Notes: generated by a model from the sequence alone, not told the origin. Positions 2,034-56,593 are shown, counted from the first letter of the stretch. The stretch: DNA of 64,000 nucleotides from a virus (IMGVR_UViG_3300025102_000021:784-64783); one strand, 5' to 3'. Program-made: numbers and translations.

Positions 2034-2782
2034 TGAAGAACTACGATAACTATAATTACTCTAGATATAAAGCTGATATTAAATCTAATATGCCTGAAGG
2101 TAAGTTTTGGGACGAATATACTAGAGATGAACTTATAATTAAGTTTTTACCCCTTGTAGAAAACATTGCAAGAAAGTTTTCAACTTCAGATTCAGCAATC
2201 GGAGTAATGAACATAACTGATTTAATAGCTATGGGTCACGTTGGTTTAATACAAGCTGTAGATAAAATACAATGGAAACAAATATTTGATTCAAAAGATC
2301 CTGAGCGAACGCTTAAATCTTACTTAGCTAAACGTATACGTGGTGCTATTAGAAGATCAACTGACACAAACAGATCTCCAATGCGTATACCTGAACATAA
2401 GCTAAATGATATACGTAAAGGCTTTGAAGATGACCCTGACAAGCAAGCTATGTTTTATAACTCTATGTTTCAAAGTATTGACGAACCAGTTCAAGAAGAC
2501 ATGTTTGTTCAGCTTGAAGACGAATCAAAAGATCCTTTGTTAAAAGAAAAATTAGCTTATAAGATTAGAGATTTAATGCTAAAGCATTTAACAGACAGAG
2601 AGTACAACGTGCTAAAACTTAGCTTTGGGCTAGACTGTGACAAGCTTTCTGCTAAACAAATTGCTGAAAAACTAAACATGAAAGGCTCTAGCTCTTACGT
2701 TAGAGTTTCACAGCTAAAAAGACAAGCAATAAACAAACTAAAAAATGTAATGAACTACTCGCAAGTGGTTGATTACCTGTAG
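2033..2782 (+). CDS. Phage sigma-70 family RNA polymerase sigma factor
   Basis: Region 2 (LPLVENIARK, DLIAMGHVGLIQAVDK, YLAKRIRGAI), MRIP, region 4 HTH (LTDREYNVLKLSFGL...LSAKQIAEKL...VRVSQLKRQAINKLK). Confidence 0.93.
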   Translation: MKNYDNYNYSRYKADIKSNMPEGKFWDEYTRDELIIKFLPLVENIARKFSTSDSAIGVMNITDLIAMGHVGLIQAVDKIQWKQIFDSKDPERTLKSYLAKRIRGAIRRSTDTNRSPMRIPEHKLNDIRKGFEDDPDKQAMFYNSMFQSIDEPVQEDMFVQLEDESKDPLLKEKLAYKIRDLMLKHLTDREYNVLKLSFGLDCDKLSAKQIAEKLNMKGSSSYVRVSQLKRQAINKLKNVMNYSQVVDYL

Positions 2783-16102: not shown

Positions 16103-19100
16103 TTAATCGTGGTAGTAACAGTTACCAGATTTAGAGTTAGTTTTCATTTTACATCTTTTGCCATCTGGCTTAATATGCTTACACTGTTTTTTCTCTCCAG
16201 TTTCGTTTTGCTCCACTTTTTCGTGAACAGTACAAAACCCATCTTTAACTGGTTTTCTTTTACATCTATTACCTTTAGAGCTTATAGCGGCACAAGTAGC
16301 TTCTTCACCTTCTTTTTTCTGCTTTTCAATATTCTCTTTAACTTTTTGCTCGTTCTCCTTAACCTCTTGTTCTTTCTTTTCTTGCTTTTTCTTTTCAGCT
16401 TGTTCTTTTCGATCTTTAGCTTTTTTAGCATCAAGCTCTTGTTCAACCTTAAGCTGATTCATACGCTTGGTATCTAATGTAACTACGTACTCGTTTTCTT
16501 TACCTTCGTTTTTAATAACCTCAGTTCCAACGTTTAAGTCCCAAGCGCTCCAACCTAAGAACAACATCATACGCTGCGTGTTGCTGTTATCTTTATTTAA
16601 GGCTTCTCTTATGTTATCTATTTTACGTATAGCTCTAGCCATCGGTAAGTTTGTTGTAGCCTCAACCACGTTACCAATAGCCTGCCAAGCAGGGCTATCG
16701 TAATCTAACATAGACATTTCGCTCATTACATCTCTACTAAACTTACGGGTTCTACCTGCAGAGTAAAGTTTTCGAGCTTTTGACCCAAGTGGTGGAGATA
16801 CATTTAAAGCCTCAATAACAACTTGAGCGTAGTCTGCTCTCCACCCTTTAGCGTCTTCCTCCATGTATTTCATAATCGCGTTTTTAAGAGTAGCAAGGGC
16901 AGCTCCATATATACCAGATCCTCTAGCTAAAGAGTCAAACATACTATTTAATATTCTAGAGTGTTTAGTGTCTTCGGTTCTATCTTTAGCCGCTTGCTGT
17001 GCTTCTGTCAACTCTTCGTCGTCATCAAAAGCTAAAGCAAACAATGCGTTTTGCATAGCTGCAAATATAAAGTTTTGGACAGCGCCATAGTAAACTATTC
17101 TTGAAACGTTGCTTCTCCAGTCGCCTCTACCATTTATTAAATCACCAGCAGCTTTTTTTATAAGTCTGTTGTACTGCATTGGTGTGTTGGCAAAAGCAAG
17201 TATAATTCTACCTAAGTTAGAAGCTTGTTGCTGTGATATTTTATCAGGTCTAGCCGACTGCTGAGTTTCTTCTGCTATTTCTTGAAAGTCTAAAAAAGCT
17301 TGAGACTCAGCTTCAGCTTGAGACATACCTTGTTTTAAGTATTTGTTAACTCTATTTCTATAAAATGAAGCACCACCAGAAGCAATAGCAAAGCTATCCG
17401 CTATTTGTGTTGGTGTAAAACCTATTTTAAGTAGATAGCCTAAAGCGGCTTTAGCTTTATTTGTAGCACCAGCAACAGCGTTTGCAAGTTCTGCCTCATT
17501 TACGTTAGTAGCTAGACCAGCTCTTCTGTTTCTTAAAAAGTCAGAGTTAAACAGAAAGCTAAAATCAGACCAATATTGTTTTTGGTTAGCAAAAGCTTTA
17601 CCAGCTTTAAATATGTTATTGTCCTCAAAGTTAATAAAGTTAACTGTAGACAAGGTTTGTAGCACAGCCGATCTAGCGTTAAAGAACATAATAGCACCAA
17701 CAGAGTTGTTGATCCAGTTGTTCCATGCGTTTTCAAACCTAGTAGCGCCTTTTCTACGGTTTTGGCCAGTCTCCATACGGTATAATATATCCTCTAGAGC
17801 TGATCTAAAGTTACTACCATATATAGCTTCGATTTTATTTAAGTTGTCTGGCGAAAATATTATATCTTTGTTTTCTAAAAACTCAGCTAAAAACTGTTTT
17901 CTACCAATTCTACTAGTAGCGTTTTGTAAGTCAAAGGCAATGTTCTCAACGTCCCAATTTTCAGTAGGCTCTAAATAACCTTGCTCTTGTCTAGATATTT
18001 TACCTAGCGCGTCAGCGTAAGCCATAAGCTCTTGATTCTGCCTAACTAAGTTTGTCATGTTAATTTTAGCCGAGTTAGATAGTCCAGGAATATCATAACC
18101 AGCTTTATCAAATAAATAAACTCTTACAGCCATGTCGTAAGTATATTTGCCGCCCTCTGTAAGTTTACCTAATAGCTTCTTTACACTAGGAAACTCTTTT
18201 TGCAAAGCTTTATAATCGTCTCTAATAGCTTGCTTCTGTTGGCTCATAGCTCTGTCTGCTCTAGCAAAAGGCTTTATTAAAGCCTCTTCAAAAAACTTTA
18301 CGTCTACGTCTCCCTGTGCTCCTGTACCAGCGAAGTATCTAAGTAAACCGGCAAAGTCTTCTGCTGAAGGAGGAACAAAAAAGGTAAATCTACCTTTGTT
18401 TTTACCTCTTCTTCTAGCTTCAACTCTAGAAAATGTTTTTTGAGCTCCAACGCCTTTGGTTCTTTCAAGCATTTGGTTAAACGTATCGTTAAACTCTTTA
18501 CTGAAGTTAATTCTTGCTTGAACAGACTTTCCTTTAACGTCCAATGCGTCAAACACACGTTTAACAGCCTTAACGTTTGATAGAGCGTCGTCAACAAAAT
18601 ACATGTCGTTATAGCCTTCAGCGTACTTTTGCACAAACCATTGCGCTTTTGCTTCACCCTCGCTTTTACCTAGTCCAGTAATATTTTCTAAAGGTATATT
18701 TATACCTTGATCTTTTAGAAACTGATGTATTGGACTAGCGGAAGCAGCAGGTCTAGCAGTTAATACATACACGTTGTCTGACCCATACTTTTTAATTTGA
18801 TTCTTCATCTTTTGTAAAAGAGGACCAGGTGTTCCATCTACTACTTTATTAAACTCTGAAAAATCATACTCAGCACCTTGAGCAAGTAAGTCCGCTCCAC
18901 GTAGAGCAAAGTCTTCAGCGTTGATTCTATCTTTTATATAGCCTTTCGTGAAGTCGTCCATTTCTTTAACGAACTCGGCTGGTAGCGCTTCTCCTTGTTT
19001 TAAGTTGTCTGTGTTTATTTCCACAAAGCCTTTAGCAGAGTATGGAAAAAATGTTACCATCTCTTTAAATGCTTTTTTGTTTTTCTTAGCTGACTCTATA

Positions 19101-22100
19101 CTGTTTCTAACAGTAGCATCGGTTAGTCTTCTTTCAGATCTATTTTTGTTTCTTTCCAGTGCATTCTCTAAAGATGACTCAACAAATACTATTTGAACAT
19201 CGTAACCAGCGTCTTTAAAATCTCTAGCCATGCTTTCAAACTGAACGCCAACAGCGCCTGTACCATCAATAACCACACCATCACCTTGACCTCTTAGTCT
19301 CGATGCTTTATTTTTAGCCGAAACAGCAGCTTCTCCTTGCAAGCTTCTCCACTTATCAGATTGTTCTCTGGTAAAGTCGTTCATGTCTTGTGGTAACCCA
19401 CTATTCTTAGTTAACCAATCTAAGGCTACATCTTGATTTATATATTTAAACCCTTGTTTTCTTAAGCCTAACTGCTTTACTATAGTTGTTTTACCTGCAC
19501 CAGCGTTACCAGCAAGCAGTATAGCTTTTCTTTTTGGCTGAGGCTTGCCGCTTGGATTAGGCATTGTTAATCTAATACCAGACTTGGTAAAGGCTAACGT
19601 GTCGTCAAAGTCAAAAGTAGACATACCTTGAGGCTCAGCGCTTTTCTTTAAGCTTAAAGCGTTGTTTCTAGCTTTAGTATACTTTTTAGCATTTTCTATT
19701 TTTTTATCTATCTCTACTCTAGTATAAGGCTCTCCGATTAATTCACCAGTACTTATGTCTCTAATAGTTTCAAGTTCCGCAAAAGGTATAGTTAAAGAGT
19801 TGTAATATCTAAACCAACTAGGATCAACTCCAAATTGATAACCAGCGTTCATTAAGCTTTGTAGTCCTTGAGCTTTTAAAACGTTGTCCATTGTTTTAGG
19901 TATAACAGCTACAGTATAGTCCTTGTAAAACTCGTTAATGTCTTTTATGCCACCTTTTTTATGCTCTTGTATTATTTTTATAGCCATGTAGTTAGCAGGT
20001 ATCATGTGCTCGTACTCCGCTAGCGATCCTAATTGTTTAGGATTCATGTTTTTAACACTATCCGCTATATACCTTAAATTAGCGGCTCTTCTTATAGGCG
20101 CTTTCATTTGGCTGTTTGCACTTATCATAAACATAGCTAAACGCACGTCGTTGTTACCAACTACGTTTAGTGCCATGTTTATAACCTCTCTAACTTCTGT
20201 AGCTTCAGCTAAACTGTCCTCGTAACTGCCTTTTTCTACGGCGTACTTACTATCTTGAGGTATGAGCTTAGTGTTAGCAGCATCGTATATTTCCTGCGTC
20301 ATACCTGGTATTTGCAAAACTCCCCAATTCATAAAGTCAGCCGCGCTATCAAACACCTGGTATCTTTGATCACTAAACTCAGTTCTAGGCTCACCATCTT
20401 TCATTAGTTGATCAGGTGTAACTTCATATAGCTTTCCGTTCTTGTCAACCTTAAACTTTCCTCTACCTATCTGAGCAGCACCAGCGTACATAGGTTTTAA
20501 TATAGCCATGACTCTAGCTACTTCAGCTAAAGTATAGTTTACTCCTGTTTTTGGGTTAATAGTATTCAGCAACGCTTTACCAATGTCGCTAGGCGTTTTT
20601 CTTGCATCAGACGCTAGATCTATATCGTCGTATAAATCTGAGCCTTTAACCTGCTTGTTTTGTATTTTTATGTTTAAAAGCTTTACTATATTGTCTGCTT
20701 CTTCGGTAAAGTTATTAGCAACGTAGTTACCCCATTTAAAACCGTCTTCATCTAACATAGAGTCTGCCACGGGCTTAAAGTACTTAGCCATCTTTACAAT
20801 ATCTTTAGCTATTCCACCCAAGGTAGACGCTGGTATCTCGCCTTTAAACACGCTAACTAAAATGTCTCTTACTTCTTTCCAGTCTGCTACATCTTTTAAA
20901 GAAGGATTTATTAATGCGGATATTTGAGGTATTTCGCTGATAAATAAACTTTTCTTAGCAGGAGATAATCCTCTAAATTCTTTACTGAAAGCCAGGGCGC
21001 TTCTACCATCTCCAAACAAAGCTACGGCAGCTGTTTCAGCTGTACCGTTCTTGATGTCGTTCATTCTAACACCTTGGTTAGCTGTTATAGCCGCAGCTTG
21101 CTTTATAAGTTCTCTTATGTTGCCGTCAAACTTAGTTCCGGTCATAAAAGATCCATCTGGATTTATACCAAACTCTGCCCAAAACTGCTCTTTAGTTATG
21201 TCAGTTCTTTTTGTTTGAGCCTCTTTACCAACGGCACTACCACTTTGCTTCATTGATATTCGTTCGCCTTTGTTGTAAAACACGCCAAGCCCAGTGTTAG
21301 CAACTAGAGTTGATTGACCAGACACTGTTTCACCCTCTGGCAAAGCAAAATCTCTAAGGTCTTTCCAGTTTTCTTTTATCGCGTTCTGCGCGTTAATTCT
21401 AAGGTTATTACTAAGAGTTTGGTTAGCTAATACTCTATTAGCCGGCACCCCAAATTTTTCAGCAACAATTTCCATTATATTAAACAACGATCCAGTTGAA
21501 ACAACATCAGAAGACTTTGTTGGCACAACTAACTTTCCCTTTTTGTTCTTTACCTTCTGAACATCAGACACAGCTTTTTTAGCGTCTACATAAGCTAAAC
21601 CAGTAGAGGTAACGTTTGACTCAGCTATAGCGTTTGATATGGCCTCCATATTTAACCCAAATGCACTAGCAAAAACCCCAGGTATAACAGCTTGCTCTCT
21701 AGCCTCTGTGTGACTAAGGTTTTGCTGCTCAAACGACTGTATCATATTATTACCCTCGTCCACAAGCATATCACCAAATGTAGCTCCGTCACCAATGTTT
21801 TTATCTAAAGACACGGTGTCACCACCCTTGTCTTTTTTATATTGGTTCATTACATCACCCTTAGCTCTAAATATAATAGACTTACCTTGACCACCAGCAA
21901 CACCTGTTAACCAGCCGAATAAACTACCGTTTGTAGCGACTACATCAAAGCCTCTTCCTCTCTCACCTGTCTTCTTATTTATTTTCCCTAAATATCTTAA
22001 CCCTATTTCTTCTTTTACTTTTCTAGTAAACTCGTCTAGAGCAGCCCCCTTAAGACCGAACTCAGTCATACCTCTTTTTATAATACCATCAAGAGATGTT

Positions 22101-25100
22101 GAGTCTACTATTTGAGTATAAGCGTTGTAGTAATCCTCAGACTGTTTAAATTCTTCTTGAGTATTATACTTAGGAGTTCCGTCTTCGTTTAAAGTGTACT
22201 GGTCGAAATCAGACTTTAAGTCCCCGTCTTCCTTAGACATTCTAGACTCTGCAGACTGCATGTAGCCTAACTCTTGCAACAACTTGTTATACTCTCTACT
22301 TCCATAAGCTATCTCACCAGAAACCCTAGCTCCTTGAGACATAGTTCTTCTCATGCCGGCGCTTAAGTTTTTACCTTTAGCTACAGTATTATTGTAGTCT
22401 CTAACAAAGTTAAAAACATCTTCAGCCGAGTCAAAGTTTACTCTAACGCCTATAGCAGAAAAAGCCCTACGTATTATGTCACCTATTTTAGTAAAAGTTG
22501 TTTCATTAAACTTAATTTCACCGTTAGCTAACGCATCAGAAAACAGAGTTAAAGTTTCTTCAGCTGCAACTATCTCGCCCTGACTAGCTCTATATCCTTC
22601 TAGTCTTCTTCTAAAGTCTGTGTTTCTTACGTTTTTAGGATCGATGTTAAGTAAATAACTTTCTAAAGCTCTACCAACAGCTAACGCTGTCTCTGGATTA
22701 TTAGCAAAAGTTTTGTTTAGTAGAACATGCATGAACTCGTGAGCAGCAACGTTTCCTCTACCCATGTTTATAGCTGACTCTTTGTTTATAACAATAGTTT
22801 GCCTACCGTTTCTCATTGGAGTAGTAAACCCATGTGTTGTTTTAAAATCGTCTACGTTGTTTTGCGCCTCTTGAACAATAGCCTCGTAGTTAATACCAGC
22901 GTCAAGTAATTGTTTGTTACTTATTTCCACGCCAGTATAAGCGTCAACAAACATTCTTTTGCCTGTTTCAGCATTAATAAAGGTTTGTACTTCAGTGTTA
23001 AGTCTATCTAAAGAAACTTGATTTAAACTGTTTTCTACTATTCCGTCTATAGCTAAGTCTCTAGCTTGTTCTCTAGGTACTGAAACTATGTTTATGTTGT
23101 CAAGTTTAAGCCTGTCTTTCCACTTTTGTATTAAGCTTGTTCCTTTCTTAAGATCTTCAGCGCTTTGTCTTTCGTTTATTTTAGCTAAAACAGGATCTAG
23201 TATTTCATTGTTCTGCTCTTGAAGAGATTGAAAAAGAGCTTTGTCATTTTTGTATTCTTGAGAGTCTCTATTTAGTTCGCTATTTTTCCATTTATTTGTT
23301 ATTTCTTCTAGCTTTTTCTTGTTGTCTTCAACCGTTTTCACCTGGTCTGGATCTAACATGCTAATAGCTTCTATCTCGTTAGCGGCTGTTCTGTCGTTTA
23401 TTTCTAACTGAGCGTTGTTTGTTTCAATCTCAATGTCTGTACCTTCTAAAAGCTCAGACATTTGATCGTAAGCTTCAAAATCTCTTTTAATAACAATTTT
23501 AGTGTCAGCTGTTAACTCACCGTTTTCTTTCATTTTTTTCGCGGCTTCATAAGCTTCTTCAGCTGTGTCGTAGGTTACTTTTCCTACTTGGTATTTTGGC
23601 TTACTTATTTTATTGTTTATAAAGCTTTTTGCTCTACCCCCAAGCTTCAGCGCTCCAAACATACCTTGTATCGCTGCTGTTGATATAAACGTTTGCTCGT
23701 AAAAGTCAGCGTCCATACCCTCTGTTAGAGGTCTACCATCAATAAGATTTGTTGGCGGCTGAGCAATTATTTCCTCCATCATCTCACCGATCATACCGTT
23801 CCAACCACCTCTTTCTTGCACTTTATTAATAAACGCAACGGTATCGTTTGGCTTTATTCCAAACTTTTTCATGAACCTACCCATAAACATTCTAGCGCCG
23901 ATGTTGTCTAAAGCGTCTAAGCCTGTCGCTCCTTTTATATACTTTGATATACCGGGAAGATATGCTCCAAATCTTTCAGAAGCAAATTGAACCCACTCTT
24001 TACCGTATTCTTTAGCAAAAGCTTCTTTAAACGACTGGCCTTCAGATATTTCGTTGATAACTTCTACGTAAGTGTCTCCAACTTCAGAGTAAGATATAGC
24101 CATTTCAGGAGTCATACCAGCGTAAGTATTACCTATTACTCTAGGTGTACCTATAGTTGTCATAGTGGTTGTACCAGCTAGAAATTGAAGAGTTTTTGCT
24201 GTAGCTCCGTTTGGATCTATAATTAATTTAGGATTTTTAACACTACCTAATATTGGAAACTTTTTTTCTAGCTTAGCTGTAAGATTAAATCCTTTAGATG
24301 ACTTTGAGTAAGCTTTTAAAACATCGTCACCATACTTAGCTAAGTAGGTTAACCCTAGCTTGTTTATAGAGTTTATCCCCAGCTTAACACCTTTGCTAGC
24401 CCAACCAGCTGGAGTATACATTAAAGCAAACTCAGCCATCATTCTAATAGAACTAGACAAACCAAACCCAGAGGCGTAGGCGTTAGATAAACTGCTAGCT
24501 TTACTTTGCATCTGCGCGTTTGATACGTACATCTTAAGCATTAACTTTTCACCTTCAGACCTTTCTTCAACTGGCTTGTCTGTTATTTTCTTAATAGCTC
24601 TCTTGTCTAGTAAGTCTACTACGTCTCCGACGATAGGTATATAGTCTGCAAGATTAGCGTCAGCAAGACCCATGTAGAAGTTCCTAAGACCTAATCCGCT
24701 CATTTTTTCTGGAGCATCTATTATTTCTAAAGCTAAATCGTAAGCCTCTTGTTCTTCACTGTCTAAGCTACCATTCTCTTTTCTTATCTTGTCGAGCTGC
24801 TGTATAGCTTTGTTAGCAGAGTTTATTAGTTCTGCAGAGCTTTTTTGACCGTCCGCGTCATAAGCTAGCTTTTCGTATGCTTTATAGAAGTACTCTTCTT
24901 TCATTATTTGTACTTCATCCGCGCTGTATCCAGTTTCTATTAAACCACGCTCAACGGCCTCCCACTCAATGCTCAGGGCCATGTTTTTGTTTTCCGTAGT
25001 CATCTGCGCAAAACCATCTCGTGACAGCCTAGTAAAAGAAGATGCTACAACACTGTCTGGTATAGTGGTTGTACCAGGGTTCCATTGCTGCGTGTATTCA

Positions 25101-26920
25101 TTTTGAAGCTCTTTGACTTTTGCATTCCAAGCGTTAGCCATGTTTTCGTTAAGATCAGAAGCTACTTCTTTTGTTTTTAGCTTCCAAAGCTCATCTTTTT
25201 TCTTGTTGTACTCTACCTCAAATTCACTAAACTCTATCTCTTGATCAGAGTTAACCTGCTCTATAACAGCGTCAATTTCTTTCTTGAAGTTTTCGTTAAG
25301 CCATTTGTTTGCTTTTTCAGTTATTGCGTCTAACTCTTCTTGAGTTTTTGGCTGTGGACCAAACTCCCCAGACTTTACAAGATCTTCTACTTCTTTGTTT
25401 AGTCTGTTAGATATTTCTTTAGCTTTTTTATCTACTATTTTTTGTGATTTGTTTTTTATTTTAAGCTGAAAATCTAGCAGCTCTGGCTCAAGCTCTTGAT
25501 CAATGCTATTTGTTATAGCTTCTTCGTTTGCTTGTATAAGGTCGGCATATTGTTGTTCATAGTACGTATTAAACTCTGCATAAGCAGGTTCTATATAATT
25601 AGAAAAGTCAGAGTTTAATTTTTCTTGATCGTAAGCTATCTCCTTGTACTCATCAAAAGTTCCTGTAAAAGTACCATCTGCTACTCTTTGTTCGTAAGCT
25701 TCTTTTGTTTTTTGTAACGCTATATCGTTTTTATCATCAACATAATTTAACAGATCTACTGTTGTCATTATATTGGCTTGTACGTCTTCTTCAGTAAGAC
25801 CTAATTCCTTCAGCTCTGCTTTTTGCTCTTCGGTTAAATCCTCTTGAAACTCTAATGATTGTTCGTTTGTGTTACCCTTGTTGTTTAATATATTTTCAGT
25901 AACGTCGCTAGCGCTTTCTTGCTTTTCACTTATTAAACTGTTGCCTAGTAATTTTTTAGCTTTCTCAGACTCTTCATACATGAACATTTTTCGATAGAAC
26001 TCGTCTATTCTAGCTTGCGTTATAGGCTCGTGGTTAGTGACAGATTTTCCATCTACCATTGTCATAACCTGTGGATTTCTTAAGTCCACAAAAGTTCCAT
26101 CGTCCATTCTTTGAACGCCGCTTATGATTGTAGATCCTTTTACCCTTCTAGACTTTTTTCTTCCTTTTTCATCGTAGTAAGTTACATACTTGCTTTCTTG
26201 ATATATAGGCTTAATTTCCGCCATAAAGTCAGCGTACGTTCCGTCGTGATGAAAGTTTTTCTTACCGTACAGATCGTACATTTCTTGAGAAGCGTCAACT
26301 ATAGTTTGCTGATCGTTTTCGTCAAACTCTTCGCCTGTTACTGCTTGGTAGTACTCTTTATAGGCTTGTGTAAATGTTACGTCTTGTAGATCTGTTTTTC
26401 TTGTAGGTAAGACTATTCTAGTCTCTTCTCCGTCTTTGTTAGTTATTATAATGTCATCTTTACCAAAGCCTGGAAACTGAATGCCTCTATCAAACTCGAA
26501 GCTAGAGTCTTCTCCATGGAATTCTTTAAGCTTGTCTCTTAGCTCTTTTTCAGGGCTGTAGTCAGAGGCCATTTCTTCAGGTCTATCTTGTGCAGCTATA
26601 ATAAACTCATCAAAGCTTAATACACGGTCTGCTTGAATCTCAACCTCAGGTAGTACATCGCCAATGGGTTTATCTTCTGTCTTTTGTGAATCCGAAGAAA
26701 TATCTTCCGACTCTGATCCCGTATTCGACGTGTCGCTTGGATCTGTTGTCGTCACGTCTACTTCGTTTCCCTCTGGATGTGTTTCAGGATCTTCAGTTCC
26801 GTCATGCATTTTGAACGGAGCATCTATCTTTAGTTTTGCGTTTGGAAATTTTTTAAGGAAAGCTTGTTCCTTGTCTTCTGGAATGTTATAGACTTTATCG
26901 TCTACTGAATATCTAGGCAT
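16103..26920 (-). CDS. Giant 3605-aa polyvalent (probably virion-ejected) protein: zincin HExxH, sigma-like segment, HAD phosphatase with nested P-loop kinase, C-terminal Cys/His repeats
   Basis: AAHEFMH; FDVVATNGSLFGWL...VSLDKNIGDGATFGDMLVDE; FDFDDTL...LTAR...FVDD interrupted by LLAGNAGAGKT...IDGT. Follows the tail and pilot genes. Confidence 0.85.
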   Translation of the reverse strand: MPRYSVDDKVYNIPEDKEQAFLKKFPNAKLKIDAPFKMHDGTEDPETHPEGNEVDVTTTDPSDTSNTGSESEDISSDSQKTEDKPIGDVLPEVEIQADRVLSFDEFIIAAQDRPEEMASDYSPEKELRDKLKEFHGEDSSFEFDRGIQFPGFGKDDIIITNKDGEETRIVLPTRKTDLQDVTFTQAYKEYYQAVTGEEFDENDQQTIVDASQEMYDLYGKKNFHHDGTYADFMAEIKPIYQESKYVTYYDEKGRKKSRRVKGSTIISGVQRMDDGTFVDLRNPQVMTMVDGKSVTNHEPITQARIDEFYRKMFMYEESEKAKKLLGNSLISEKQESASDVTENILNNKGNTNEQSLEFQEDLTEEQKAELKELGLTEEDVQANIMTTVDLLNYVDDKNDIALQKTKEAYEQRVADGTFTGTFDEYKEIAYDQEKLNSDFSNYIEPAYAEFNTYYEQQYADLIQANEEAITNSIDQELEPELLDFQLKIKNKSQKIVDKKAKEISNRLNKEVEDLVKSGEFGPQPKTQEELDAITEKANKWLNENFKKEIDAVIEQVNSDQEIEFSEFEVEYNKKKDELWKLKTKEVASDLNENMANAWNAKVKELQNEYTQQWNPGTTTIPDSVVASSFTRLSRDGFAQMTTENKNMALSIEWEAVERGLIETGYSADEVQIMKEEYFYKAYEKLAYDADGQKSSAELINSANKAIQQLDKIRKENGSLDSEEQEAYDLALEIIDAPEKMSGLGLRNFYMGLADANLADYIPIVGDVVDLLDKRAIKKITDKPVEERSEGEKLMLKMYVSNAQMQSKASSLSNAYASGFGLSSSIRMMAEFALMYTPAGWASKGVKLGINSINKLGLTYLAKYGDDVLKAYSKSSKGFNLTAKLEKKFPILGSVKNPKLIIDPNGATAKTLQFLAGTTTMTTIGTPRVIGNTYAGMTPEMAISYSEVGDTYVEVINEISEGQSFKEAFAKEYGKEWVQFASERFGAYLPGISKYIKGATGLDALDNIGARMFMGRFMKKFGIKPNDTVAFINKVQERGGWNGMIGEMMEEIIAQPPTNLIDGRPLTEGMDADFYEQTFISTAAIQGMFGALKLGGRAKSFINNKISKPKYQVGKVTYDTAEEAYEAAKKMKENGELTADTKIVIKRDFEAYDQMSELLEGTDIEIETNNAQLEINDRTAANEIEAISMLDPDQVKTVEDNKKKLEEITNKWKNSELNRDSQEYKNDKALFQSLQEQNNEILDPVLAKINERQSAEDLKKGTSLIQKWKDRLKLDNINIVSVPREQARDLAIDGIVENSLNQVSLDRLNTEVQTFINAETGKRMFVDAYTGVEISNKQLLDAGINYEAIVQEAQNNVDDFKTTHGFTTPMRNGRQTIVINKESAINMGRGNVAAHEFMHVLLNKTFANNPETALAVGRALESYLLNIDPKNVRNTDFRRRLEGYRASQGEIVAAEETLTLFSDALANGEIKFNETTFTKIGDIIRRAFSAIGVRVNFDSAEDVFNFVRDYNNTVAKGKNLSAGMRRTMSQGARVSGEIAYGSREYNKLLQELGYMQSAESRMSKEDGDLKSDFDQYTLNEDGTPKYNTQEEFKQSEDYYNAYTQIVDSTSLDGIIKRGMTEFGLKGAALDEFTRKVKEEIGLRYLGKINKKTGERGRGFDVVATNGSLFGWLTGVAGGQGKSIIFRAKGDVMNQYKKDKGGDTVSLDKNIGDGATFGDMLVDEGNNMIQSFEQQNLSHTEAREQAVIPGVFASAFGLNMEAISNAIAESNVTSTGLAYVDAKKAVSDVQKVKNKKGKLVVPTKSSDVVSTGSLFNIMEIVAEKFGVPANRVLANQTLSNNLRINAQNAIKENWKDLRDFALPEGETVSGQSTLVANTGLGVFYNKGERISMKQSGSAVGKEAQTKRTDITKEQFWAEFGINPDGSFMTGTKFDGNIRELIKQAAAITANQGVRMNDIKNGTAETAAVALFGDGRSALAFSKEFRGLSPAKKSLFISEIPQISALINPSLKDVADWKEVRDILVSVFKGEIPASTLGGIAKDIVKMAKYFKPVADSMLDEDGFKWGNYVANNFTEEADNIVKLLNIKIQNKQVKGSDLYDDIDLASDARKTPSDIGKALLNTINPKTGVNYTLAEVARVMAILKPMYAGAAQIGRGKFKVDKNGKLYEVTPDQLMKDGEPRTEFSDQRYQVFDSAADFMNWGVLQIPGMTQEIYDAANTKLIPQDSKYAVEKGSYEDSLAEATEVREVINMALNVVGNNDVRLAMFMISANSQMKAPIRRAANLRYIADSVKNMNPKQLGSLAEYEHMIPANYMAIKIIQEHKKGGIKDINEFYKDYTVAVIPKTMDNVLKAQGLQSLMNAGYQFGVDPSWFRYYNSLTIPFAELETIRDISTGELIGEPYTRVEIDKKIENAKKYTKARNNALSLKKSAEPQGMSTFDFDDTLAFTKSGIRLTMPNPSGKPQPKRKAILLAGNAGAGKTTIVKQLGLRKQGFKYINQDVALDWLTKNSGLPQDMNDFTREQSDKWRSLQGEAAVSAKNKASRLRGQGDGVVIDGTGAVGVQFESMARDFKDAGYDVQIVFVESSLENALERNKNRSERRLTDATVRNSIESAKKNKKAFKEMVTFFPYSAKGFVEINTDNLKQGEALPAEFVKEMDDFTKGYIKDRINAEDFALRGADLLAQGAEYDFSEFNKVVDGTPGPLLQKMKNQIKKYGSDNVYVLTARPAASASPIHQFLKDQGINIPLENITGLGKSEGEAKAQWFVQKYAEGYNDMYFVDDALSNVKAVKRVFDALDVKGKSVQARINFSKEFNDTFNQMLERTKGVGAQKTFSRVEARRRGKNKGRFTFFVPPSAEDFAGLLRYFAGTGAQGDVDVKFFEEALIKPFARADRAMSQQKQAIRDDYKALQKEFPSVKKLLGKLTEGGKYTYDMAVRVYLFDKAGYDIPGLSNSAKINMTNLVRQNQELMAYADALGKISRQEQGYLEPTENWDVENIAFDLQNATSRIGRKQFLAEFLENKDIIFSPDNLNKIEAIYGSNFRSALEDILYRMETGQNRRKGATRFENAWNNWINNSVGAIMFFNARSAVLQTLSTVNFINFEDNNIFKAGKAFANQKQYWSDFSFLFNSDFLRNRRAGLATNVNEAELANAVAGATNKAKAALGYLLKIGFTPTQIADSFAIASGGASFYRNRVNKYLKQGMSQAEAESQAFLDFQEIAEETQQSARPDKISQQQASNLGRIILAFANTPMQYNRLIKKAAGDLINGRGDWRSNVSRIVYYGAVQNFIFAAMQNALFALAFDDDEELTEAQQAAKDRTEDTKHSRILNSMFDSLARGSGIYGAALATLKNAIMKYMEEDAKGWRADYAQVVIEALNVSPPLGSKARKLYSAGRTRKFSRDVMSEMSMLDYDSPAWQAIGNVVEATTNLPMARAIRKIDNIREALNKDNSNTQRMMLFLGWSAWDLNVGTEVIKNEGKENEYVVTLDTKRMNQLKVEQELDAKKAKDRKEQAEKKKQEKKEQEVKENEQKVKENIEKQKKEGEEATCAAISSKGNRCKRKPVKDGFCTVHEKVEQNETGEKKQCKHIKPDGKRCKMKTNSKSGNCYYHD

Positions 26921-29827: not shown

Positions 29828-32800
29828 TTATGTTAGCTGTACTTTTTGAGTTTTTAAGGTATCTACTGGATCAAAAGTGTTAGACGTGCCTGTTCCAGTG
29901 TACTTTATAGTATAAGTAACCTTACCGTTAGCGTCTCCATCAGAGTTAGCGCTTAAAGCGTAAGACACTTCCCATCTTGAAATATCGTCAACAGACAGCG
30001 CCATATCATGCTCTCCAGCGCCAGTTCCAAAAGAAAGGCCACTATCAGTTTCTATAACTACAGTAGCTACAGTTCTTTGCGTTGTGCCAACCGTTGTGCC
30101 ACCATCGCTAGAAACGGTAAACACGTCATTTTCACTACTGTCATCAGACGCATTTACAGTCTGCGTAGCTGAATAACCTGTTCCAGCGGTTAAAATTGGA
30201 GTTTCAGTGCCGGCGGTGTTTACTATAGCAACAGTAAATGATTGGCCTGAAGTAGATGCTGTAACTTCTTCAGATTCTCTTATTTTTACAGTGTAAACGA
30301 CGTCTTCCGTTATAGTTAAGCTACCAAACAAAACATCAACTAAAACTGTTCCAAAAGCCCCATCAGAGTAAGAGACCGTTATATCGTTAGTGTTAGCTGT
30401 GCCGGCGTTCGTAGTTATTGTTAGACCTGTTGTCGAAAAGTCTGCTGCGGCAGCAAGGTCAAAACCTAAGTTTGGTGTTATAACCATAGAAAGACTTTGC
30501 AGCGTATTTTGATTGTCACCGTCCATTACCTCAGCTGAAATTCCTTGAACACTAGCGTTAGCTAAAGATAAGCCTGTTGTGTTATCAACCATTACTACAC
30601 TTACGTTTCTAGTTAAAGAGTCAGGTATTACCTGCTCTTCAACTTCAACATCACCATCGTTCATTGTTGGGCTAGGGAAGGTTACTAAGTCAAGAGCTGA
30701 AATACCATCGTCGCTTGGATCTGGGTTGTCAGCTTGACCTTGGTAAGAATACGTGTACGTAACCGCTGTGGGTTGACCTTCACCGTTGTAAGTATACACT
30801 TCAGTATAAGACCAGTGAGATGCTGTATTAAAAGCTTCTGTAGGATCAAAGTCATCAGCAGAGAACACATAGCCCGGTTGAGCCGTGAAAGTTGCAGAGA
30901 ACGTCTCTTGTGCTGCTCCAGACGTGCTATATAGTTGACTTTGTCCAGATAAATTAAACGTTGCGTTTCCTGAAGCATCGTATGACGGCGCAAACACAGA
31001 GTAATCACTTAACCCGCTTATGTCATACGTGTAGTTTACTGGCTGATTTATTGTTACTTGAAACTCGTGGTCTTGACAAATGTCAACAAGGTCAACCTCT
31101 ATAGGTATAGCGTAGGACGTGTTTGAAGAAATAACAGCTGAACTTAGCGTTACAGTTAGGGTTATAGTATTTCCAGGCATGATCGTTTGAGCACTAGGCA
31201 CACTAACTGAAGTGATGCCGCTAGGTAAGGTTCCTACTGTTATGTTTGCAGATGTAATTGCACCGCAAGCTGGAGCTGTAAGCACTATTGATTGCGTGCC
31301 TAAAGTATTTTGATTAGCACCGTTTTGTATGGTGCTTGATGGAACAACTACAGTAGTAGTACTGGCTCCATCTCCAGTTAACGTAGTAGTTAAAGAAACC
31401 GTGCTAGTGCCAAAAGTTGCTCCGCCAAAGCCAATAGAGTCTATTCTACCTAGTCCTTGTACGTTAAACTCTTGTGATGTTGGTAAGTTACTACCGTCTA
31501 GCTCATCACCATGTATGTAATTAAACCATTTACCTTCTTTTTCCTTAAACTCATGTATAGAACCTCTTTGCTTGTCTGTTATTATGCTTTCTACAGACCA
31601 GCCGTTTACAGCTGTGTTATTGTAGTATTCGTTATCGCTAAAAATTAAAGCGTCGCCACCTCCCACCGTGGCAGCAACATTGTCTACTAAGGTTAGCGAG
31701 GTACCACTTATAGACTTTACAACGCCTACTTTAATACCGTCGTCGAGGCTTACTGTTTGTCCAGCTGCTATAGCGGTGTTTGATGTTGCTAAAGTTATGC
31801 TGTCACTAGATCCGCTAGAAACTGAAGCGCCACTATTATCTACAGAAACATCAGGCTTTATAATCTTAGACTGAGTTCCCTCGTAGTTTATAGCTTGAAA
31901 GCTTTTGACAGCAGCAGGTGCATCGTTAAATATAGTTGTTATAGAAGACTTGTATTGCGTGCCATAATAGTTACATCTAGCAACGTCGCCACCACTGTAG
32001 TTTTTCTCATCGTGCAAGTAAACTAAGCCTCCGACCATCGTGTAATAGTTAGAGTCAAGAGAAACACCAGCGTCTGGAACGTAAGACTTAAAAGAGGTCC
32101 AGCCTTTAACAAATTCAGAGTAAGAAATTGTTTCTACAGTCTTACTAGTGCTCGTAACGTTGTAATGTAACGTTAAGTCATATTCACCTTTATCTCTATT
32201 GTAAGAACCTACCGCGGCAGATATTTCATCTAGTGCATCTCCAAAGTAGTCTCCCATACCAGCGTCAGATATAGCTGTCAATCCGTCGTTTGATAATCTT
32301 AAAACTTTATTTCTATGAGGGTCTACAAAATAGGATCTAAACTCTTCGTTGATAAAAGAAGATCTTAACGTACCTATACCAAACTCTCCAGCATACGGAA
32401 CAGTTTGACCTAACACGTTTTTAGTTGAAGTCACTTGATTAGCTCCTGATGCTGTAAATAAAGCATCTTTGTTAGCTAACACTTTTACCGCTTTATGCTC
32501 GCAAACTGTAGTTATGTTTGTGTCTCTAGCGTTTAGTATTTGTATAGAGCCAAACTGAGGGTTTAAGTCTTTAGTTATTCCCGAAGAACTAATAAACTGA
32601 TTCAAGTTGTTTACTCCATTTTTAGAGTTGTATATACCTGAGAATATTAATCCATTGCCTCTGTCTTCTTCTTTATAGTTATCTGATGTAGTTGACACCT
32701 TTACGCCGTTCTCCATTAACGGAGCGTTAAAGTCATCTTGTATTCTATTAGACTCAACACCATTACCAAACTTAAAGCAATTAGAAAAAGGCAAGCAAAA

Positions 32801-35800
32801 CATTCCGTTGTGGACTTCAGGTTTTATATATAGTACCGTGCCAGACGTTCCGTACGTAGCCTCTGAGCTAGAGTGCCATATTTTAGCCGTAGCAAAAGAT
32901 CCGTCCTCTCTAATAAACCAAACAGTGCCAGCTCTTTGATAATTGTTTGAATTGGTGTCTAAAGAGCCATTACCATCGCTATCGTACGCGTGTAATACCG
33001 GCAAAGTAAAAGGCGTATCAACAGTTACAGCTGTAGGTCCATCTGGAAACTCAGGTCCAGCTACGCTAACTACAGTTGTGGTTAAATTATACCAAGCTCT
33101 TCTCCTACTAGCATCGTGCATAAACTCCTCACGTAGCTCAGTCGTTTGCCCAGATTGAGCCCCAGCTTTGTAGTACATGTAAATTCTATCTCCGGGATTA
33201 ATAAACTCATACGCGTTTTGTTCTTTTAGCTTTACAGGATAAGTTCTAGGAACCTCATAATATACAGGTATATCTAATTTGTCTCTAGGTTCTACCTCAA
33301 ATATAGCTGGGTTTGGGTTGTTGGTGCCGCCGGTAGTCGAATATATGTTATCAGACTGCCAATACTTTCTCCAAGAACCATCATTACCTGGCTGTACACC
33401 AAAAGCTGCGATAATAGCTCTGTCTATTTTCACTTTAGCAAAAAACTTACCAGCTTTGTCTTCGCCGGACGGTACTCTTTCCTCTGGAATAGAGTCATCT
33501 GGAACTTCATTTGATATATCTAATATTTTATATTTTCTATCGCCCATACCTGATATGTGCGCGTCTGTAGCTCCAAGGCCGTCTTGCCATCTAGAATGAC
33601 CTTTTTTTAATATTAAAAAATCTCCTTCTTGAACTTTGTTTCTATCTGCAGAAGAAAAAGATAACCAAACTTCACTAGCGTTATCATTGTCGTCTACATT
33701 ACACGGATAATGCGCTTGCAAAGGTATATTGTAAAATTCAGCTGAGGATTCTTTAATAAAGAATTTAAAATATTCCGCCCAGCTTGGAGCGTTGTGAGCT
33801 ACATCTAATCTCAATCTATCAATTTGATCTCTTCTTTGATAACCTATATCTAAAGTGTACTTGTCGCCTATAACTACAGATGATTCTCTACCAAATCTAT
33901 CTTTATAAACCATACCAACAGAATATGATCTACCAGCCTTTAAAGCTGGATAACCGTAAAACTTTCCGTTACTATGGTTTGTTTGCCACTTATAAGGATC
34001 TGAGTGTAAAGAAAAATTGCCTCGCCAGTCGTTATAGTTCAACTCTATATTATCTTCAGCCGCGTCTTTTAGATCGTAGTTTGCTTTGTAGTTACCATAT
34101 ATTAATCTTGAGGCAGATATAGTTTGAGCTACTGCTGTTCTAGGTACAGAATCAAAAGGCCTTAGCAGTTGGTCAGACGGAAGTACAGATCCTAACGCAC
34201 TACCGGTAGCAACAAACCTTCCGTGACCAGCGTTTGAAACGCCCTCAAAAGCGTCTTTATCAAACTCATATTCTCTAAAGCCTGTGCTAGCGTTTACCTT
34301 GTAGTCTCCTTTTTTAATTGTTTTTAAAAGATACAAGTTTGCCACTTTGTCTTCTTTAGCTACTATATCTACTTGAACCACGTCTTTTGGCGTGCCTAAA
34401 GGTAAGAAGTTACTTATAGTAAGCTCCCTTAAATCGTTTATCATAGCGGTGTTGTAGCTATCTTTAGAAGAATAACTGTATCGATCTCTAGGTAAAAAAC
34501 AAACTTCAGAAAAAGGTGATAAAGCTGATACTTCGCCATCTTCATATTTCCACCTGTAGGCTATTCTAATAAACTGCTTTTCCCACATGGCTTTTGCTGG
34601 ATGCTTTGATTTACCGCTTTCATACAGGCTAGCTTCCCATTTTATAGCCGCTTGATTTGGTGGCTTTTCAAGATAAAGAGCGTTAGCTTCTATGAACTTA
34701 GTGCTTATAGTTGTGGCTGAGCTGTCAGTAACCTCTAGATATACTTCGTAGCCATTGTTTTTTAATACTAGTTTGTCACCTGCTTTTATTGATCTGTAGT
34801 TACCACCAGAGTCTATGTTTAATGCTATTTCTACTTTTTCGTGCTCTACATTTTCTGCTATAGTAAAGTTAAAAGCATTCCCTTTGGTGTAGCTAGTAAA
34901 GTCTGTTCCTGCACCCTCATCTCCAGCTGTGTTAGTTACACCTATTTTATTAACCTGCCCTTTTAACTGAGTGTTACGCATTTTAATAACAGGAGGATTT
35001 AAAGGACTTCTTTTTATTACGGTGATATGCTCTAGCGTAAGCTTTTCTGAAGCAAATTCACCTAAGTGATTTTTATAAACAAACTTAGTCTCGTGATAAG
35101 GGTTGACGTTTAGCGTACCTCTTTTAGAGTTTTCAATATTTATTTTTTTAGGCTCAGTTTTACCGTCAGTAAAATAAAGTAAACCATCAAAAGTGTTTAT
35201 ACCAGTTATCTTGTTATCTATTGGAGTAGGACTAGTAACGCTGCTACCATTAGTGTCTGTGTAAGAAATTTTACTTGATGGCTCAAAGTTTAAAAGCCTT
35301 TCGTCACTAAACTTTAAAACAGCGCCAGCATTTAAGTTTGCTGCCGTTAAGTTTATAGTTCCTGTAGACGGGTTACTAAGTCTTAGTATTAAATAAGATG
35401 AAGGTATGTCAAATTGAGGTGTTGCAAGAATTACAGTTATTGTTCCATTAGCCTCCCAAAGATTAGTGCCATCTGGTAGTACAGCTTGAACAGTCATGCC
35501 TGATTTTATACCGTTTAAGTAGTTAAAGTAAGCAGAGTCGGTAACTATAATTTCAGTGTAGTTTTCGGTTATGACGGTAGTAGCGTTAGTTGTAGCCGTA
35601 GGGTTAGCCTTGGTATTTCTTTTTCCTCCTTCAATAACACCGAAAGGTCTTTTAACCTCATATATATCGCTAAAAACTATTTTAGTTGTGTTTTGGGAAG
35701 TTTTAGGAGTTTCTACAATAGCGTCTGATCTAACCCCTGTTTCTACGTTTCCGTACGATCCAACCGATGTAACACCATAGTCTAACACTCTAGCTATAAG

Positions 35801-56226: not shown

Positions 56227-56259
56227 ACAAATCAACTACGATACTATATAGATATTATA
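56227..56259 (+). promoter_or_regulatory. Putative early promoter, copy 1
   Basis: ACAAATCAACTACG-N10-GATATTATA. Confidence 0.7.
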
Positions 56260-56302
56260 TATGTAACAAATAACTAATATTAACTTAAATAAATTAAATA
56301 CT

Positions 56303-56582: not shown

Positions 56583-56593
56583 AATCTAATAAT

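What the first reader, a model, noticed from the sequence alone, without database searches (positions are those of the whole stretch)
21750..22135. Sigma-factor-like segment embedded in the giant virion protein: a possible injected sigma for early promoters
Seen: ...LDEFTRKVKEEIGLRYLGK...FDVVATNGSLFGWL...IIFRAKGDV...VSLDKNIGDGATFGDMLVDE. Established: sigma70 region 2.3 reads FD...G..F.(T/W)(Y/L) and region 3.2 reads SLD.PIG...(T/S)LGD.I.D. These segments appear here in the same order. crAss-like phages inject their own RNAP from a similarly placed giant gene, but no DxDGD/DFDID catalytic motif was seen here. Inference: this phage may inject a sigma domain, perhaps released by the nearby zincin, that redirects host core RNAP to the 33-bp element. 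The standalone sigma (2033-2782) would then drive later genes. The similarity is by eye only.
Basis: inference. Interest (0 to 1): 0.85.

Follow-up and report, generated by a model that had tools for sequence, protein, structure and literature searches.

The report
Sigma-like fold in phage cargo protein
A giant protein that this marine phage probably carries in its particle contains an optional domain predicted to fold like the core-binding part of a bacterial sigma factor, but that domain does not track the repeated promoter-like element it was proposed to read.

Summary
The four peptide segments are real. They lie on the minus strand (window 21755-22039), at aa 1628-1722 of a 3605-aa ORF (16103-26920).

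All sequence tests for sigma-70 membership failed: Pfam, a six-frame Sigma70_r2 scan, PDB profile and phmmer searches, and hhalign.

Two predictions point the other way:
- A co-fold with a flavobacterial beta' fragment that should hold the clamp helices passed its controls (0.68 vs 0.15).

The predicted contact residues are less conserved than the rest of the fold. The early-region element (AAATACG-N10-GATAATAT, 9 copies) is present in 10 of 10 near-complete related phages, yet 7 of those lack the domain.

My reading is that this is an optional two-domain cassette in an ejected polyvalent cargo protein of a crAss-related flavobacterial phage with no virion RNA polymerase. Its first domain is sigma2-like and probably targets host RNA polymerase. 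It is not shown to be a sigma factor and is unlikely to read the repeated element. The evidence is computational only.

The parts
16103..26920 (-). Giant ORF of 3605 aa (P0001), a probable virion cargo or polyvalent protein. It lies in the late/structural gene block downstream of the muzzle gene.
   Evidence: ORF list and translation. Pfam hits are a kinase, DUF5763 and a weak LPD14. Neighbours hit PHROG virion-structural, DNA-ejection, portal and TerL families and Pfam crAss_MUZ_C.
22259..22843 (-). Zincin-like region, aa 1360-1554, with HEFMH at aa 1394-1398 (window 22727-22741).
   Evidence: H1394, E1395 and H1398 are invariant in 16 aligned giant proteins, and E1455 is also invariant. No Pfam peptidase family reaches E<=1 on P0001. 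Many IMG/VR relatives keep this region but lack the next module.
21824..22246 (-). Domain A, aa 1559-1699: a helical domain with a predicted sigma2-like fold.
   Evidence: AF2 models. VIA-align neighbours. Co-fold with beta'. Conservation.
21677..21823 (-). Acidic linker, aa 1700-1748, predicted disordered.
   Evidence: pLDDT is below 50 for model residues 146-191. pI is 4.05, with 9 D+E against 2 K+R.
20975..21676 (-). Domain B, aa 1749-1982: a conserved alpha/beta domain of unknown fold (pLDDT above 90). It occurs with or without domain A in other giant proteins.
   Evidence: Model. Separate occurrence of query parts 9-190 and 235-428. No Foldseek match in the PDB or BFVD apart from a homologue. 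This domain was never searched on its own.
19112..19543 (-). P-loop kinase, aa 2460-2603 (AAA_33 / Zeta_toxin-type fold; PHROG 'polynucleotide kinase'). It is flanked by a DxDxT-type FDFDDT string.
   Evidence: Pfam 2.7e-10 and 1.2e-07. phrog_505 at 2.4e-07. The HAD-type reading of FDFDDT is by eye and was not tested.
16526..18430 (-). Conserved C-terminal core, aa 2831-3465. It is shared by at least 588 IMG/VR stretches.
   Evidence: Invariant columns. Patterns DSFAI[AS]xGG and R[PE]Dx[IV]SQ[QE]Q gave 588 confirmed relatives.
16217..16297 (-). DUF5763 cysteine cluster, aa 3542-3568. A second similar Cys/His cluster sits at the very C-terminus.
   Evidence: Pfam 2.6e-06, above its cut-off. Invariant C3580, C3590, C3601 and H3604.
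2033..2782 (+). Standalone sigma-70-family sigma factor of 249 aa. This is the phage's only Pfam-detectable sigma.
   Evidence: phrog_351 at 5.4e-25 and Sigma70_r4 at 8.3e-08. It is the only Sigma70_r2 match in the six-frame genome scan.
56234..62387 (+). Cluster of 9 copies of AAATACG-N10-GATAATAT (up to 2 mismatches), all on the + strand, among small ORFs.
   Evidence: Repeat families D1 and D2. The pattern search found 9 matches against 0.23 expected, and 0 of 100 shuffles reached 9.
29828..36139 (-). Muzzle-type protein of 2103 aa. It marks the crAss-related virion module.
   Evidence: PF25729 crAss_MUZ_C at 1.5e-09. phrog_14478 at 1.8e-112.

Best explanation
Residues ~1559-1982 of the giant protein form an optional two-domain cassette inside a polyvalent cargo protein, which the phage probably packs in its particle and ejects ahead of or with its DNA. 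The phage is crAss-related, infects flavobacteria by kinship, and has no RNA-polymerase signature of its own.

The first domain (aa ~1559-1699) is a very divergent sigma2-like helical domain. The most likely mechanism is as follows. After ejection, and perhaps after cleavage by the neighbouring zincin, the domain docks on the beta' clamp helices of host RNA polymerase, the site where sigma region 2 binds. It would then act as a sigma mimic. That could mean a competitor of host sigma, or an auxiliary initiation or tethering factor for the entering DNA.

The domain is not the factor that reads the conserved early-region element.

Shown: the sequences, their conservation, and their patchy distribution. 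Predicted: the fold and the docking. Inferred: ejection, cleavage, and any effect on transcription.
For: FOLD
- The AF2 model of aa 1555-1985 has mean pLDDT 83.9. The model of aa 1555-1745 has pLDDT 77.9, with blocks 11-100 at 89-96.
- The full-length model gave the same picture.

DOCKING
- Domain A residues 5-150 were co-folded with Swiss-Prot RPOC_FLAJ1 residues 180-380. The score was 0.68 (three runs: 0.68, 0.63, 0.69). The best of 3 controls was 0.15.
- This mark was reached by 58 of 80 solved complexes and 2 of 110 mismatched pairs. The counts hold only roughly, because my own alignment was used.
- The runs agree in at least 80% of contacts, and the partner's pLDDT is at least 78.
- Because sigma2/beta' complexes are solved, the pass may be from memory. 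It therefore shows likeness, not binding.
- The contacts are beta' 295-315 and domain-A residues 38-51 and 79-93. These lie on the helices that the 1sig_A range maps to regions 2.1 and 2.2.
- In a Flavobacteriaceae MAG beta', the E. coli clamp helices 262-309 map to about 279-326.

MOTIFS
- The family motif NFDPxKNxSLFGWL sits after the helix equivalent to region 2.2, like FEYRRGYKFSTYA of RpoD 419-431.
- hhalign's best local match is this motif (P 0.014; the reversed control gave P 0.92).

OPTIONAL CARGO CASSETTE
- A search of 1.84 billion representatives gave 154 hits at E<=0.001. Those listed are giant proteins or short, probably truncated, pieces. Parts A and B occur separately.
- Many IMG/VR relatives go from the zincin to the C-terminal core without the cassette.

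CONTEXT
- The structural module has a muzzle gene, a portal and TerL.
- There is no two-barrel RNAP motif in the genome.
Against: - Every sequence-level test for sigma is negative. Pfam on the protein finds nothing relevant, and on 41 family members no Sigma70 family appears among the 25 of 49 families listed. The six-frame Sigma70_r2 scan at E<=10 finds only the standalone sigma. The PDB profile search has 8 hits at E<=10, none a sigma. phmmer of the 105-aa segment has 1 hit, not a sigma. hhalign gives probability 0.06-0.7% against the phage sigma profile and 0.8-3.1% against a mixed E. coli and phage sigma alignment.
- Foldseek finds nothing significant (best E 0.13 and 0.9).
- The predicted beta'-contact residues are LESS conserved than the rest of the folded core: 0.379 against 0.518, with 9,981 of 10,000 random residue sets scoring as high or higher. 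Surface exposure could not be controlled for.
- The most conserved feature is a glycine-rich loop (GxxGGxGxS) that interrupts the region 2.3/2.4-equivalent helix. It has no counterpart in the sigma sequences I aligned.
- No sigma4 was found.
- There is no evidence here that the protein is in virions or is cleaved.
Confidence: 0.45

Rival explanations
1. The domain is a helical module with no role at RNA polymerase. It could be a packing or ejection scaffold, or an effector against another host target. On this view, its likeness to sigma2 is the convergent geometry of a small helical bundle plus a chance local motif.
For: - All profile and HMM tests for sigma are negative.
- Foldseek is negative.
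- The predicted beta' interface is poorly conserved.
- The best-conserved parts are an N-terminal hairpin and a Gly-rich loop, neither of which is a sigma feature.
- The co-fold pass can arise from likeness to solved complexes alone (the tool's own caveat).
Against: - Rows naming sigma factors fill the top of a list drawn from 48,161 chains in two independent models.
- Those rows cover whole sigma2 domains (78 of 78, 85 of 89, 97 of 106).
- The co-fold places the domain on beta' residues 295-315, inside the clamp-helix range estimated from a related beta', through the helices that map to regions 2.1 and 2.2.
- Three motifs are collinear with regions 2.2, 2.3 and the linker (greedy alignment).
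Confidence: 0.33
2. The domain is a true injected sigma. It is released by the zincin, forms a holoenzyme with host core RNAP, and starts transcription at the repeated AAATACG-N10-GATAATAT elements of the early region. The standalone sigma would then drive later genes.
For: - The fold and docking evidence is the same as for the best explanation.
- The phage has no RNAP motif of its own, so host RNAP must transcribe it from the start.
- The element is real, strand-specific and confined to the small-ORF region.
- To my recall, the element does not look like the Bacteroidota TTTG / TAnnTTTG promoter. This was not tested.
- The part of the domain most conserved in the family is the stretch equivalent to region 2.3/2.4, which in sigma factors touches DNA.
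Against: - The element is present in 10 of 10 near-complete related records, with 4 to 10 copies on one strand.
- Seven of those records (G012-G018) have no domain A by protein search at E<=0.01 or by profile search at E<=1.
- The standalone sigma is present in 8 of the 10, so it tracks the element better.
- No sigma4 or other -35-reading domain was detected.
- The cassette is optional, so it cannot be essential for early transcription in this clade.
Confidence: 0.1

Closest known systems
Sigma-70 family domain sigma2 (regions 2.1-2.4), especially ECF-type sigma2 such as SigR, SigC, sigmaE and sigmaH
   Same: - The predicted helical topology is shared: nearly whole sigma2 domains superpose (78 of 78, 85 of 89 and 97 of 106 residues at rmsd 2.8-3.8).
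- Docking on the beta' fragment is predicted at residues inferred to be its clamp helices.
- An FD-x3-[KN]-x2-[LF]-x2-[WY] motif follows the helix equivalent to region 2.2.
- An acidic flexible linker follows the domain.
   Different: - No profile-level sequence similarity was found.
- A conserved Gly-rich loop splits the last helix.
- There is an extra N-terminal helix and hairpin.
- No sigma4 was found.
- The domain is embedded in a 3605-aa protein rather than free-standing.
- The presumed core-binding face is poorly conserved.
Virion RNA polymerases of crAss-like phages (phi14:2 gp66) and the neighbouring zincin-bearing cargo proteins
   Same: - A giant gene next to the muzzle and structural genes of a crAss-related virion module.
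- A zincin-like HExxH domain in the same protein or gene cluster.
- An expected role in the first minutes of infection (bioRxiv 10.1101/2020.03.07.982082, passages; PMC10172136, passages).
   Different: - No DFDxD motif occurs anywhere in the genome.
- phmmer of the whole protein against PDB sequences gave only 2 weak hits at E<=1, an adenylate kinase and YbgL.
- If this protein acts on transcription at all, it would borrow the host enzyme rather than bring its own.
Polyvalent proteins of phages and conjugative elements (Iyer, Burroughs, Anand, de Souza and Aravind 2017, PMC5512222)
   Same: - Many unrelated modules sit in one giant polypeptide: a zincin motif, a kinase, Cys clusters and optional cassettes.
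- Module content varies between close relatives.
- A weak LPD14 match was found.
- The idea is delivery with the DNA to act before phage genes are expressed (passages).
   Different: - In that paper's main text the word 'sigma' occurs 0 times, so a sigma-like module is not among those described there. Its supplements were not seen.
- The LPD14 match is below Pfam's cut-off (21.8 against 27 bits).
Phage T4 gp55 (a sigma2-only late sigma) and T4 Alt (an injected enzyme that modifies RNAP). Both are recalled, not taken from any call.
   Same: - gp55 is a precedent for a phage sigma that consists of a region-2-like domain only.
- Alt is a precedent for a virion-delivered protein that acts on host RNAP at once.
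   Different: - gp55 is made after infection, not injected.
- Alt is an enzyme, not a sigma mimic.

Membership tests
Sigma-70 family (sigma factor) | A significant match to a Sigma70 region 2 profile (Pfam PF04542) or to known sigma sequences. | tested here: not met
   - hmmscan of P0001 and of aa 1541-1773 at E<=1 finds no Sigma70 family.
- The six-frame PF04542 scan of the genome at E<=10 finds only the standalone sigma.
- Of 41 family members scanned, none shows a Sigma70 family among the 25 of 49 families listed.
- The PDB profile and phmmer searches at E<=10 find no sigma.
- hhalign probabilities are 3.1% or lower.
Sigma-70 family (sigma factor) | The sigma2 three-dimensional fold. | tested here: inconclusive
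- Foldseek is negative.
Sigma-70 family (sigma factor) | Binding of region 2.1/2.2 to the beta' clamp helices of core RNAP. | tested here: inconclusive
   - The co-fold score is 0.68 against a best control of 0.15. The mark was reached by 58 of 80 solved and 2 of 110 mismatched pairs. The runs agree in at least 80% of contacts, and the partner's pLDDT is at least 78.
- The pass may be from memory of solved sigma/beta' complexes.
- The contact residues are less conserved than the rest of the core.
- There is no experiment.
Sigma-70 family (sigma factor) | A region 4 (sigma4) helix-turn-helix for the -35 element and the beta flap. | tested here: not met
   - No PF04545 or other HTH family at E<=1 on P0001.
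- hhalign of domain B against the sigma alignment gives probability 0.5%, P 0.13.
- Domain B was not folded or searched on its own, so a sigma4-like fold is not excluded.
Sigma-70 family (sigma factor) | A region 3.2-type linker after sigma2. | tested here: inconclusive
   - An acidic, predicted-disordered stretch follows (aa 1700-1748, pI 4.05).
- The pattern was post hoc and is only partly conserved.
Crassvirales virion RNA polymerase (gp66-type two-barrel RNAP) | The catalytic DFDxD motif in a double-psi beta-barrel. | tested here: not met
   - No D-x-D-x-D in P0001.
- No D[FYLIVMW]DxD in any open frame of 150 aa or more in the 64,783-bp genome.
Crassvirales cargo proteins | Encoded beside the muzzle and tail genes of a crAss-type virion module. 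| tested here: met
   - ORF 29828-36139 hits PF25729 crAss_MUZ_C.
- Portal, TerL, virion-structural and DNA-ejection PHROGs flank the gene.
- TerL relatives are flavobacterial podophages.
Crassvirales cargo proteins | Presence in the virion and ejection into the host. | not testable with these tools
   This needs virion mass spectrometry. It is inferred only from gene position and from PMC10172136.
Polyvalent proteins (Iyer et al. 2017) | Several unrelated effector domains in one phage polypeptide, with LPD-type domains. | tested here: inconclusive
   - The kinase (2.7e-10) and DUF5763 are above their cut-offs. An invariant HExxH is present.
- LPD14 scores only 21.8 bits against a cut-off of 27.
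- Module content varies among relatives.

The most novel reading that the evidence does not exclude
A phage without its own RNA polymerase delivers, inside a giant ejected polyprotein, a sigma2-type domain that seizes host core RNA polymerase at the moment of DNA entry. The domain would act with its partner domain B and the conserved Gly-rich loop as a DNA-reading element. This would be a virion-borne sigma factor, a third strategy beside injected RNA polymerases (N4, crAss-like, phiKZ) and reliance on host sigma. Its target would be a site other than the clade-wide early element, for example a single entry-proximal site.
Probability: 0.12. Interest if true: 0.9.

Novelty: new variant of a known kind. 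Interest (0 to 1): 0.6.

Why it matters
Phages are known to take over transcription in two ways. Some inject a complete RNA polymerase. Others make sigma or anti-sigma factors after infection. A sigma2-like, clamp-helix-docking module carried in the particle would act before any phage gene is expressed. I did not find this described in the papers I searched (limited searches; supplements not seen).

It would also give a function to one module of the very large, fast-evolving cargo proteins of crAss-related marine phages. Those proteins are almost entirely unannotated.

The idea is directly testable with a ~190-residue recombinant fragment and flavobacterial RNA polymerase.

If the likeness is only geometric, the result still has value. 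It shows that the repeated early-region element does not depend on this domain. It also shows that the phage lacks the crAss-type polymerase.

Tried and rejected
NEGATIVE OR EMPTY SEARCHES
- Foldseek against the PDB: the full model's best hit was E 0.13 (fumarase, TM 0.12). The domain-A model's best hit was E 0.9. Nothing usable.
- Foldseek against BFVD found only one homologue, an uncultured-virus protein at E 1.9e-26.
- ESM Atlas gave no usable hit.
- tblastn of aa 1441-1873 and aa 2830-3471 against 50,697 GenBank phage records found no match.
- The closest GenBank relative by TerL is MW202828.1 (63% identity). Its syntenic giant ORF of 3859 aa has no detectable similarity (best blastp E 1.0).
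- phmmer of the whole protein against PDB sequences found only an adenylate kinase and YbgL at E<=1, so no link to phi14:2 gp66.
- A search for shorter stand-alone forms gave 17 hits, mostly pieces from short contigs, so there is no evidence of a free-standing version.
- The related-loci scan of genome contigs with the phage sigma alignment gave only phage-like sigma copies in MAGs. It did not give the diverse bacterial sigma set I wanted, so I used five E. coli sigma genes instead. fecI was cut off and was not used.

IDEAS CONSIDERED AND DROPPED
- I considered that LDGLIQxGM is the region 2.2 equivalent, as in hhalign's greedy alignment. The structural range for 1sig_A instead suggests that helix 71-90 plays that part. 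No residue-level structural alignment was available, so this stays open.
- I considered domain B as a sigma4 or as an RNAP-modifying enzyme. Nothing supports either.

CLOSED OR UNSEEN
- Supplementary files of papers were not opened. Those of PMC5512222 (domain lists) and of the phi14:2 paper could bear on whether this module has been named.

Full report
WHAT IS THERE

The window is almost the whole of a 64,783-bp virus record that CheckV rates as complete. The quoted peptides lie on the minus strand in one 3605-aa ORF, 16103-26920. They span aa 1628-1722, window 21755-22039.

The gene sits in the late block beside several marker genes:
- a 2103-aa protein with the Pfam crAss muzzle C-terminal domain;
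- a portal and a large terminase;
- ORFs matching PHROG virion-structural and DNA-ejection families.

TerL relatives in GenBank are podophages of Flavobacterium, Cellulophaga, Tenacibaculum and Maribacter (87 records).

The giant protein itself gives only these hits:
- a P-loop kinase at aa 2460-2603 (Pfam; PHROG 'polynucleotide kinase');
- a DUF5763 Cys cluster;
- a sub-threshold LPD14 match.

It also has an invariant HExxH. There is no D-x-D-x-D in the protein. There is no D[hydrophobic]DxD in any open frame of 150 aa or more in the genome. The crAss-type virion polymerase signature described for phi14:2 gp66 (passages) is therefore absent. phmmer against PDB sequences finds no gp66-like chain.

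IS IT MORE THAN CHANCE?

- The 'region 3.2' pattern fits 9 of 12 fixed positions. The best of 300 shuffles fits 7.
- The 'region 2.3' pattern in strict register fits 4 of 6 positions, as 174 of 300 shuffles also do.
- Both patterns were recalled after reading the sequence, so this test is generous to them.

THE FAMILY

A word-indexed search found 118 giant proteins (1982-4487 aa) sharing aa 1560-1800. An exhaustive HMMER search of 1.84 billion representatives with aa 1555-1985 found only 154 proteins at E<=0.001. Those listed are giant proteins or short pieces. Query parts ~9-190 and ~235-428 occur separately.

The region is therefore two modules:
- A, aa ~1559-1699;
- B, aa ~1749-1982.

An acidic stretch joins them. 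Many IMG/VR relatives keep the zincin and the strongly conserved C-terminal core but lack A and B. The cassette is optional.

The conserved core of A is NFDPxKNxSLFGWLTGxxGGxGxSIIYRAKGDV. The window's protein has a private 11-residue insert just before the FD. One relative has a 45-residue insert at the same place.

SEQUENCE TESTS FOR SIGMA: ALL NEGATIVE

- Pfam finds no Sigma70 family on the protein or on aa 1541-1773 at E<=1.
- On 41 family members scanned, no Sigma70 family appears among the 25 of 49 families listed.
- A six-frame scan of the genome with Sigma70_r2 at E<=10 hits only the standalone sigma at 2033-2782.
- A profile of 86 family sequences against all PDB chain sequences gives 8 hits at E<=10, none a sigma.
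- phmmer of the 105-aa segment gives one hit, not a sigma.
- hhalign against the phage's own sigma family gives probability 0.7% and 0.06%.
- hhalign against a mixed alignment of E. coli RpoD, RpoE, RpoH, RpoS, FliA and phage sigmas gives 0.8-3.1%. The best local P is 0.014, on the FDP...SLFGWL motif. The reversed control gives P 0.92.

By sequence, this is not a member of the sigma-70 family.

STRUCTURE PREDICTION POINTS THE OTHER WAY

AlphaFold2 without templates was run twice:
- aa 1555-1985, with 86 sequences, gave mean pLDDT 83.9;
- aa 1555-1745, with 41 sequences, gave 77.9.

Both give the same helical domain A. A disordered linker follows it, which contains the 'SLD..IG' string. The longer model also has a confident alpha/beta domain B.

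Foldseek found nothing.

- 13 rows name a sigma factor outright;
- three more (AlgU, CnrH, BldN) are sigma factors by my recall;
- three are chains F of RNAP initiation complexes that I did not identify.

In the top 50 rows, 21 name a sigma factor outright. Coverage is of nearly whole sigma2 domains:

DOCKING

Domain A residues 5-150 (with its alignment) were co-folded with residues 180-380 of Swiss-Prot RPOC_FLAJ1.
- The score was 0.68 (runs 0.68, 0.63, 0.69), against 0.15 for the best of three controls.
- That mark was reached by 58 of 80 solved complexes and 2 of 110 mismatched pairs. The counts hold only roughly, since my own alignment was used.
- The runs agree in at least 80% of contacts, and the partner's pLDDT is at least 78.
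- The contacts are beta' 295-315 with domain-A residues 38-51 and 79-93.

In a Flavobacteriaceae MAG beta', the E. coli clamp helices (262-309, recalled) map to about 279-326. The contacts therefore lie in the clamp helices, if F. johnsoniae numbers alike, which I did not check.

Sigma2/beta' complexes are solved, so this pass may be memory. It strengthens the likeness, not the binding.

Against binding, the contact residues are less conserved than the rest of the folded core: 0.379 against 0.518, with 9,981 of 10,000 random sets as high or higher. I could not restrict that comparison to surface residues.

THE LINK TO THE REPEATED ELEMENT FAILS

The element is real. There are 9 matches to AAATACG-N10-GATAATAT (up to 2 mismatches), all on the + strand between 56234 and 62387. 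That compares with 0.23 expected, and 0 of 100 shuffles reach 9.

In 21 related IMG/VR records the pattern is found in 16, and in 10 of 10 records that are at least 90% complete (4-10 copies on one strand).

Domain A has a different distribution:
- It is found in 9 of the 21 records, and in only 3 of those 10 complete ones.
- A profile of ten domain-A sequences still finds nothing at E<=1 in the seven complete records G012-G018.
- The same profile does recover divergent copies in three incomplete records that I had counted as lacking it.

The standalone sigma is in 8 of the 10 complete records.

The element therefore does not depend on domain A. The cassette is an accessory.

READING

I take the cassette to be an optional effector module of an ejected polyvalent cargo protein. 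The polyvalent-protein concept comes from PMC5512222 (abstract start and passages). Crassvirus cargo storage and ejection come from PMC10172136 (passages).

Its first domain most likely targets host RNA polymerase as a sigma mimic. Whether it competes with host sigma, tethers polymerase to entering DNA, or truly initiates is open.

Three things remain unexplained:
- the near-invariant Gly-rich loop, which sits where sigma region 2.3/2.4 would touch DNA;
- the conserved N-terminal hairpin;
- domain B.

My rough odds are:
- sigma2-like fold real: ~0.7-0.8;
- no RNAP role: ~0.33.

LITERATURE

Two full-text searches found no description of a virion-delivered sigma (11 papers, 9 listed; 4 papers, 3 listed, two read by passages). 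These searches are narrow and do not show absence from print. Supplements were closed.

Noticed in passing
window 56234-62387 (+); related records G002-G022: The promoter-like element AAATACG-N10-GATAATAT is conserved across the whole phage clade. It is in 16 of 21 related records and in 10 of 10 near-complete ones, always clustered on one strand. Which holoenzyme reads it is unknown. The standalone sigma co-occurs in 8 of 10.
   Followed up: partly
whole genome (G000, 64,783 bp): This is a crAss-related virion module (muzzle domain, portal, TerL) in a phage with no two-barrel RNAP motif anywhere. So this lineage appears to have crAss-type cargo genes without the crAss-type polymerase.
   Followed up: partly
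window 19100-19620 (-), aa ~2431-2610 of the giant protein: A P-loop kinase (PHROG 'polynucleotide kinase') sits right after an FDFDDT string that looks like a HAD motif I. This could be a Pnkp-like RNA-repair module delivered with the DNA. The HAD part is by eye only.
   Followed up: no
L082 (MW202828.1) 741-12320: The closest GenBank relative by TerL (63% identity) has a syntenic giant ORF of 3859 aa. It has two HExxH motifs but no detectable similarity to this one (best blastp E 1.0). The cargo gene turns over far faster than the virion genes.
   Followed up: partly
window 2033-2782 (+): The standalone sigma has very many close relatives in metagenomes. 7894 of the 8000 scored candidates have E<=0.001, and the top 120 are at least 71% identical. 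It carries an insert between regions 2.2 and 2.3 relative to the E. coli sigmas.
   Followed up: partly
window 52803-54377 (-): The phage encodes a GroEL-type chaperonin (phrog_5725, 4.7e-134). The GenBank relative also annotates groEL and a 10-kDa co-chaperonin.
   Followed up: no
window 16103-16300 (-), aa ~3540-3605: There are two Cys/His clusters at the very C-terminus (one matches DUF5763). They follow a long Lys/Glu-rich stretch and are conserved across relatives.
   Followed up: no
G012 (record of L030) 2276-3025 and 65785-66534: Two copies of the standalone sigma gene lie near both ends of one 67-kb record. This probably reflects terminal redundancy of the assembly.
   Followed up: no
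L025:10535-11068 and window 21950-21982 (-): Two family members carry private inserts (45 aa and 11 aa) at the same point of domain A. The point is between the helix equivalent to region 2.2 and the FD motif, so it is a tolerated loop.
   Followed up: no
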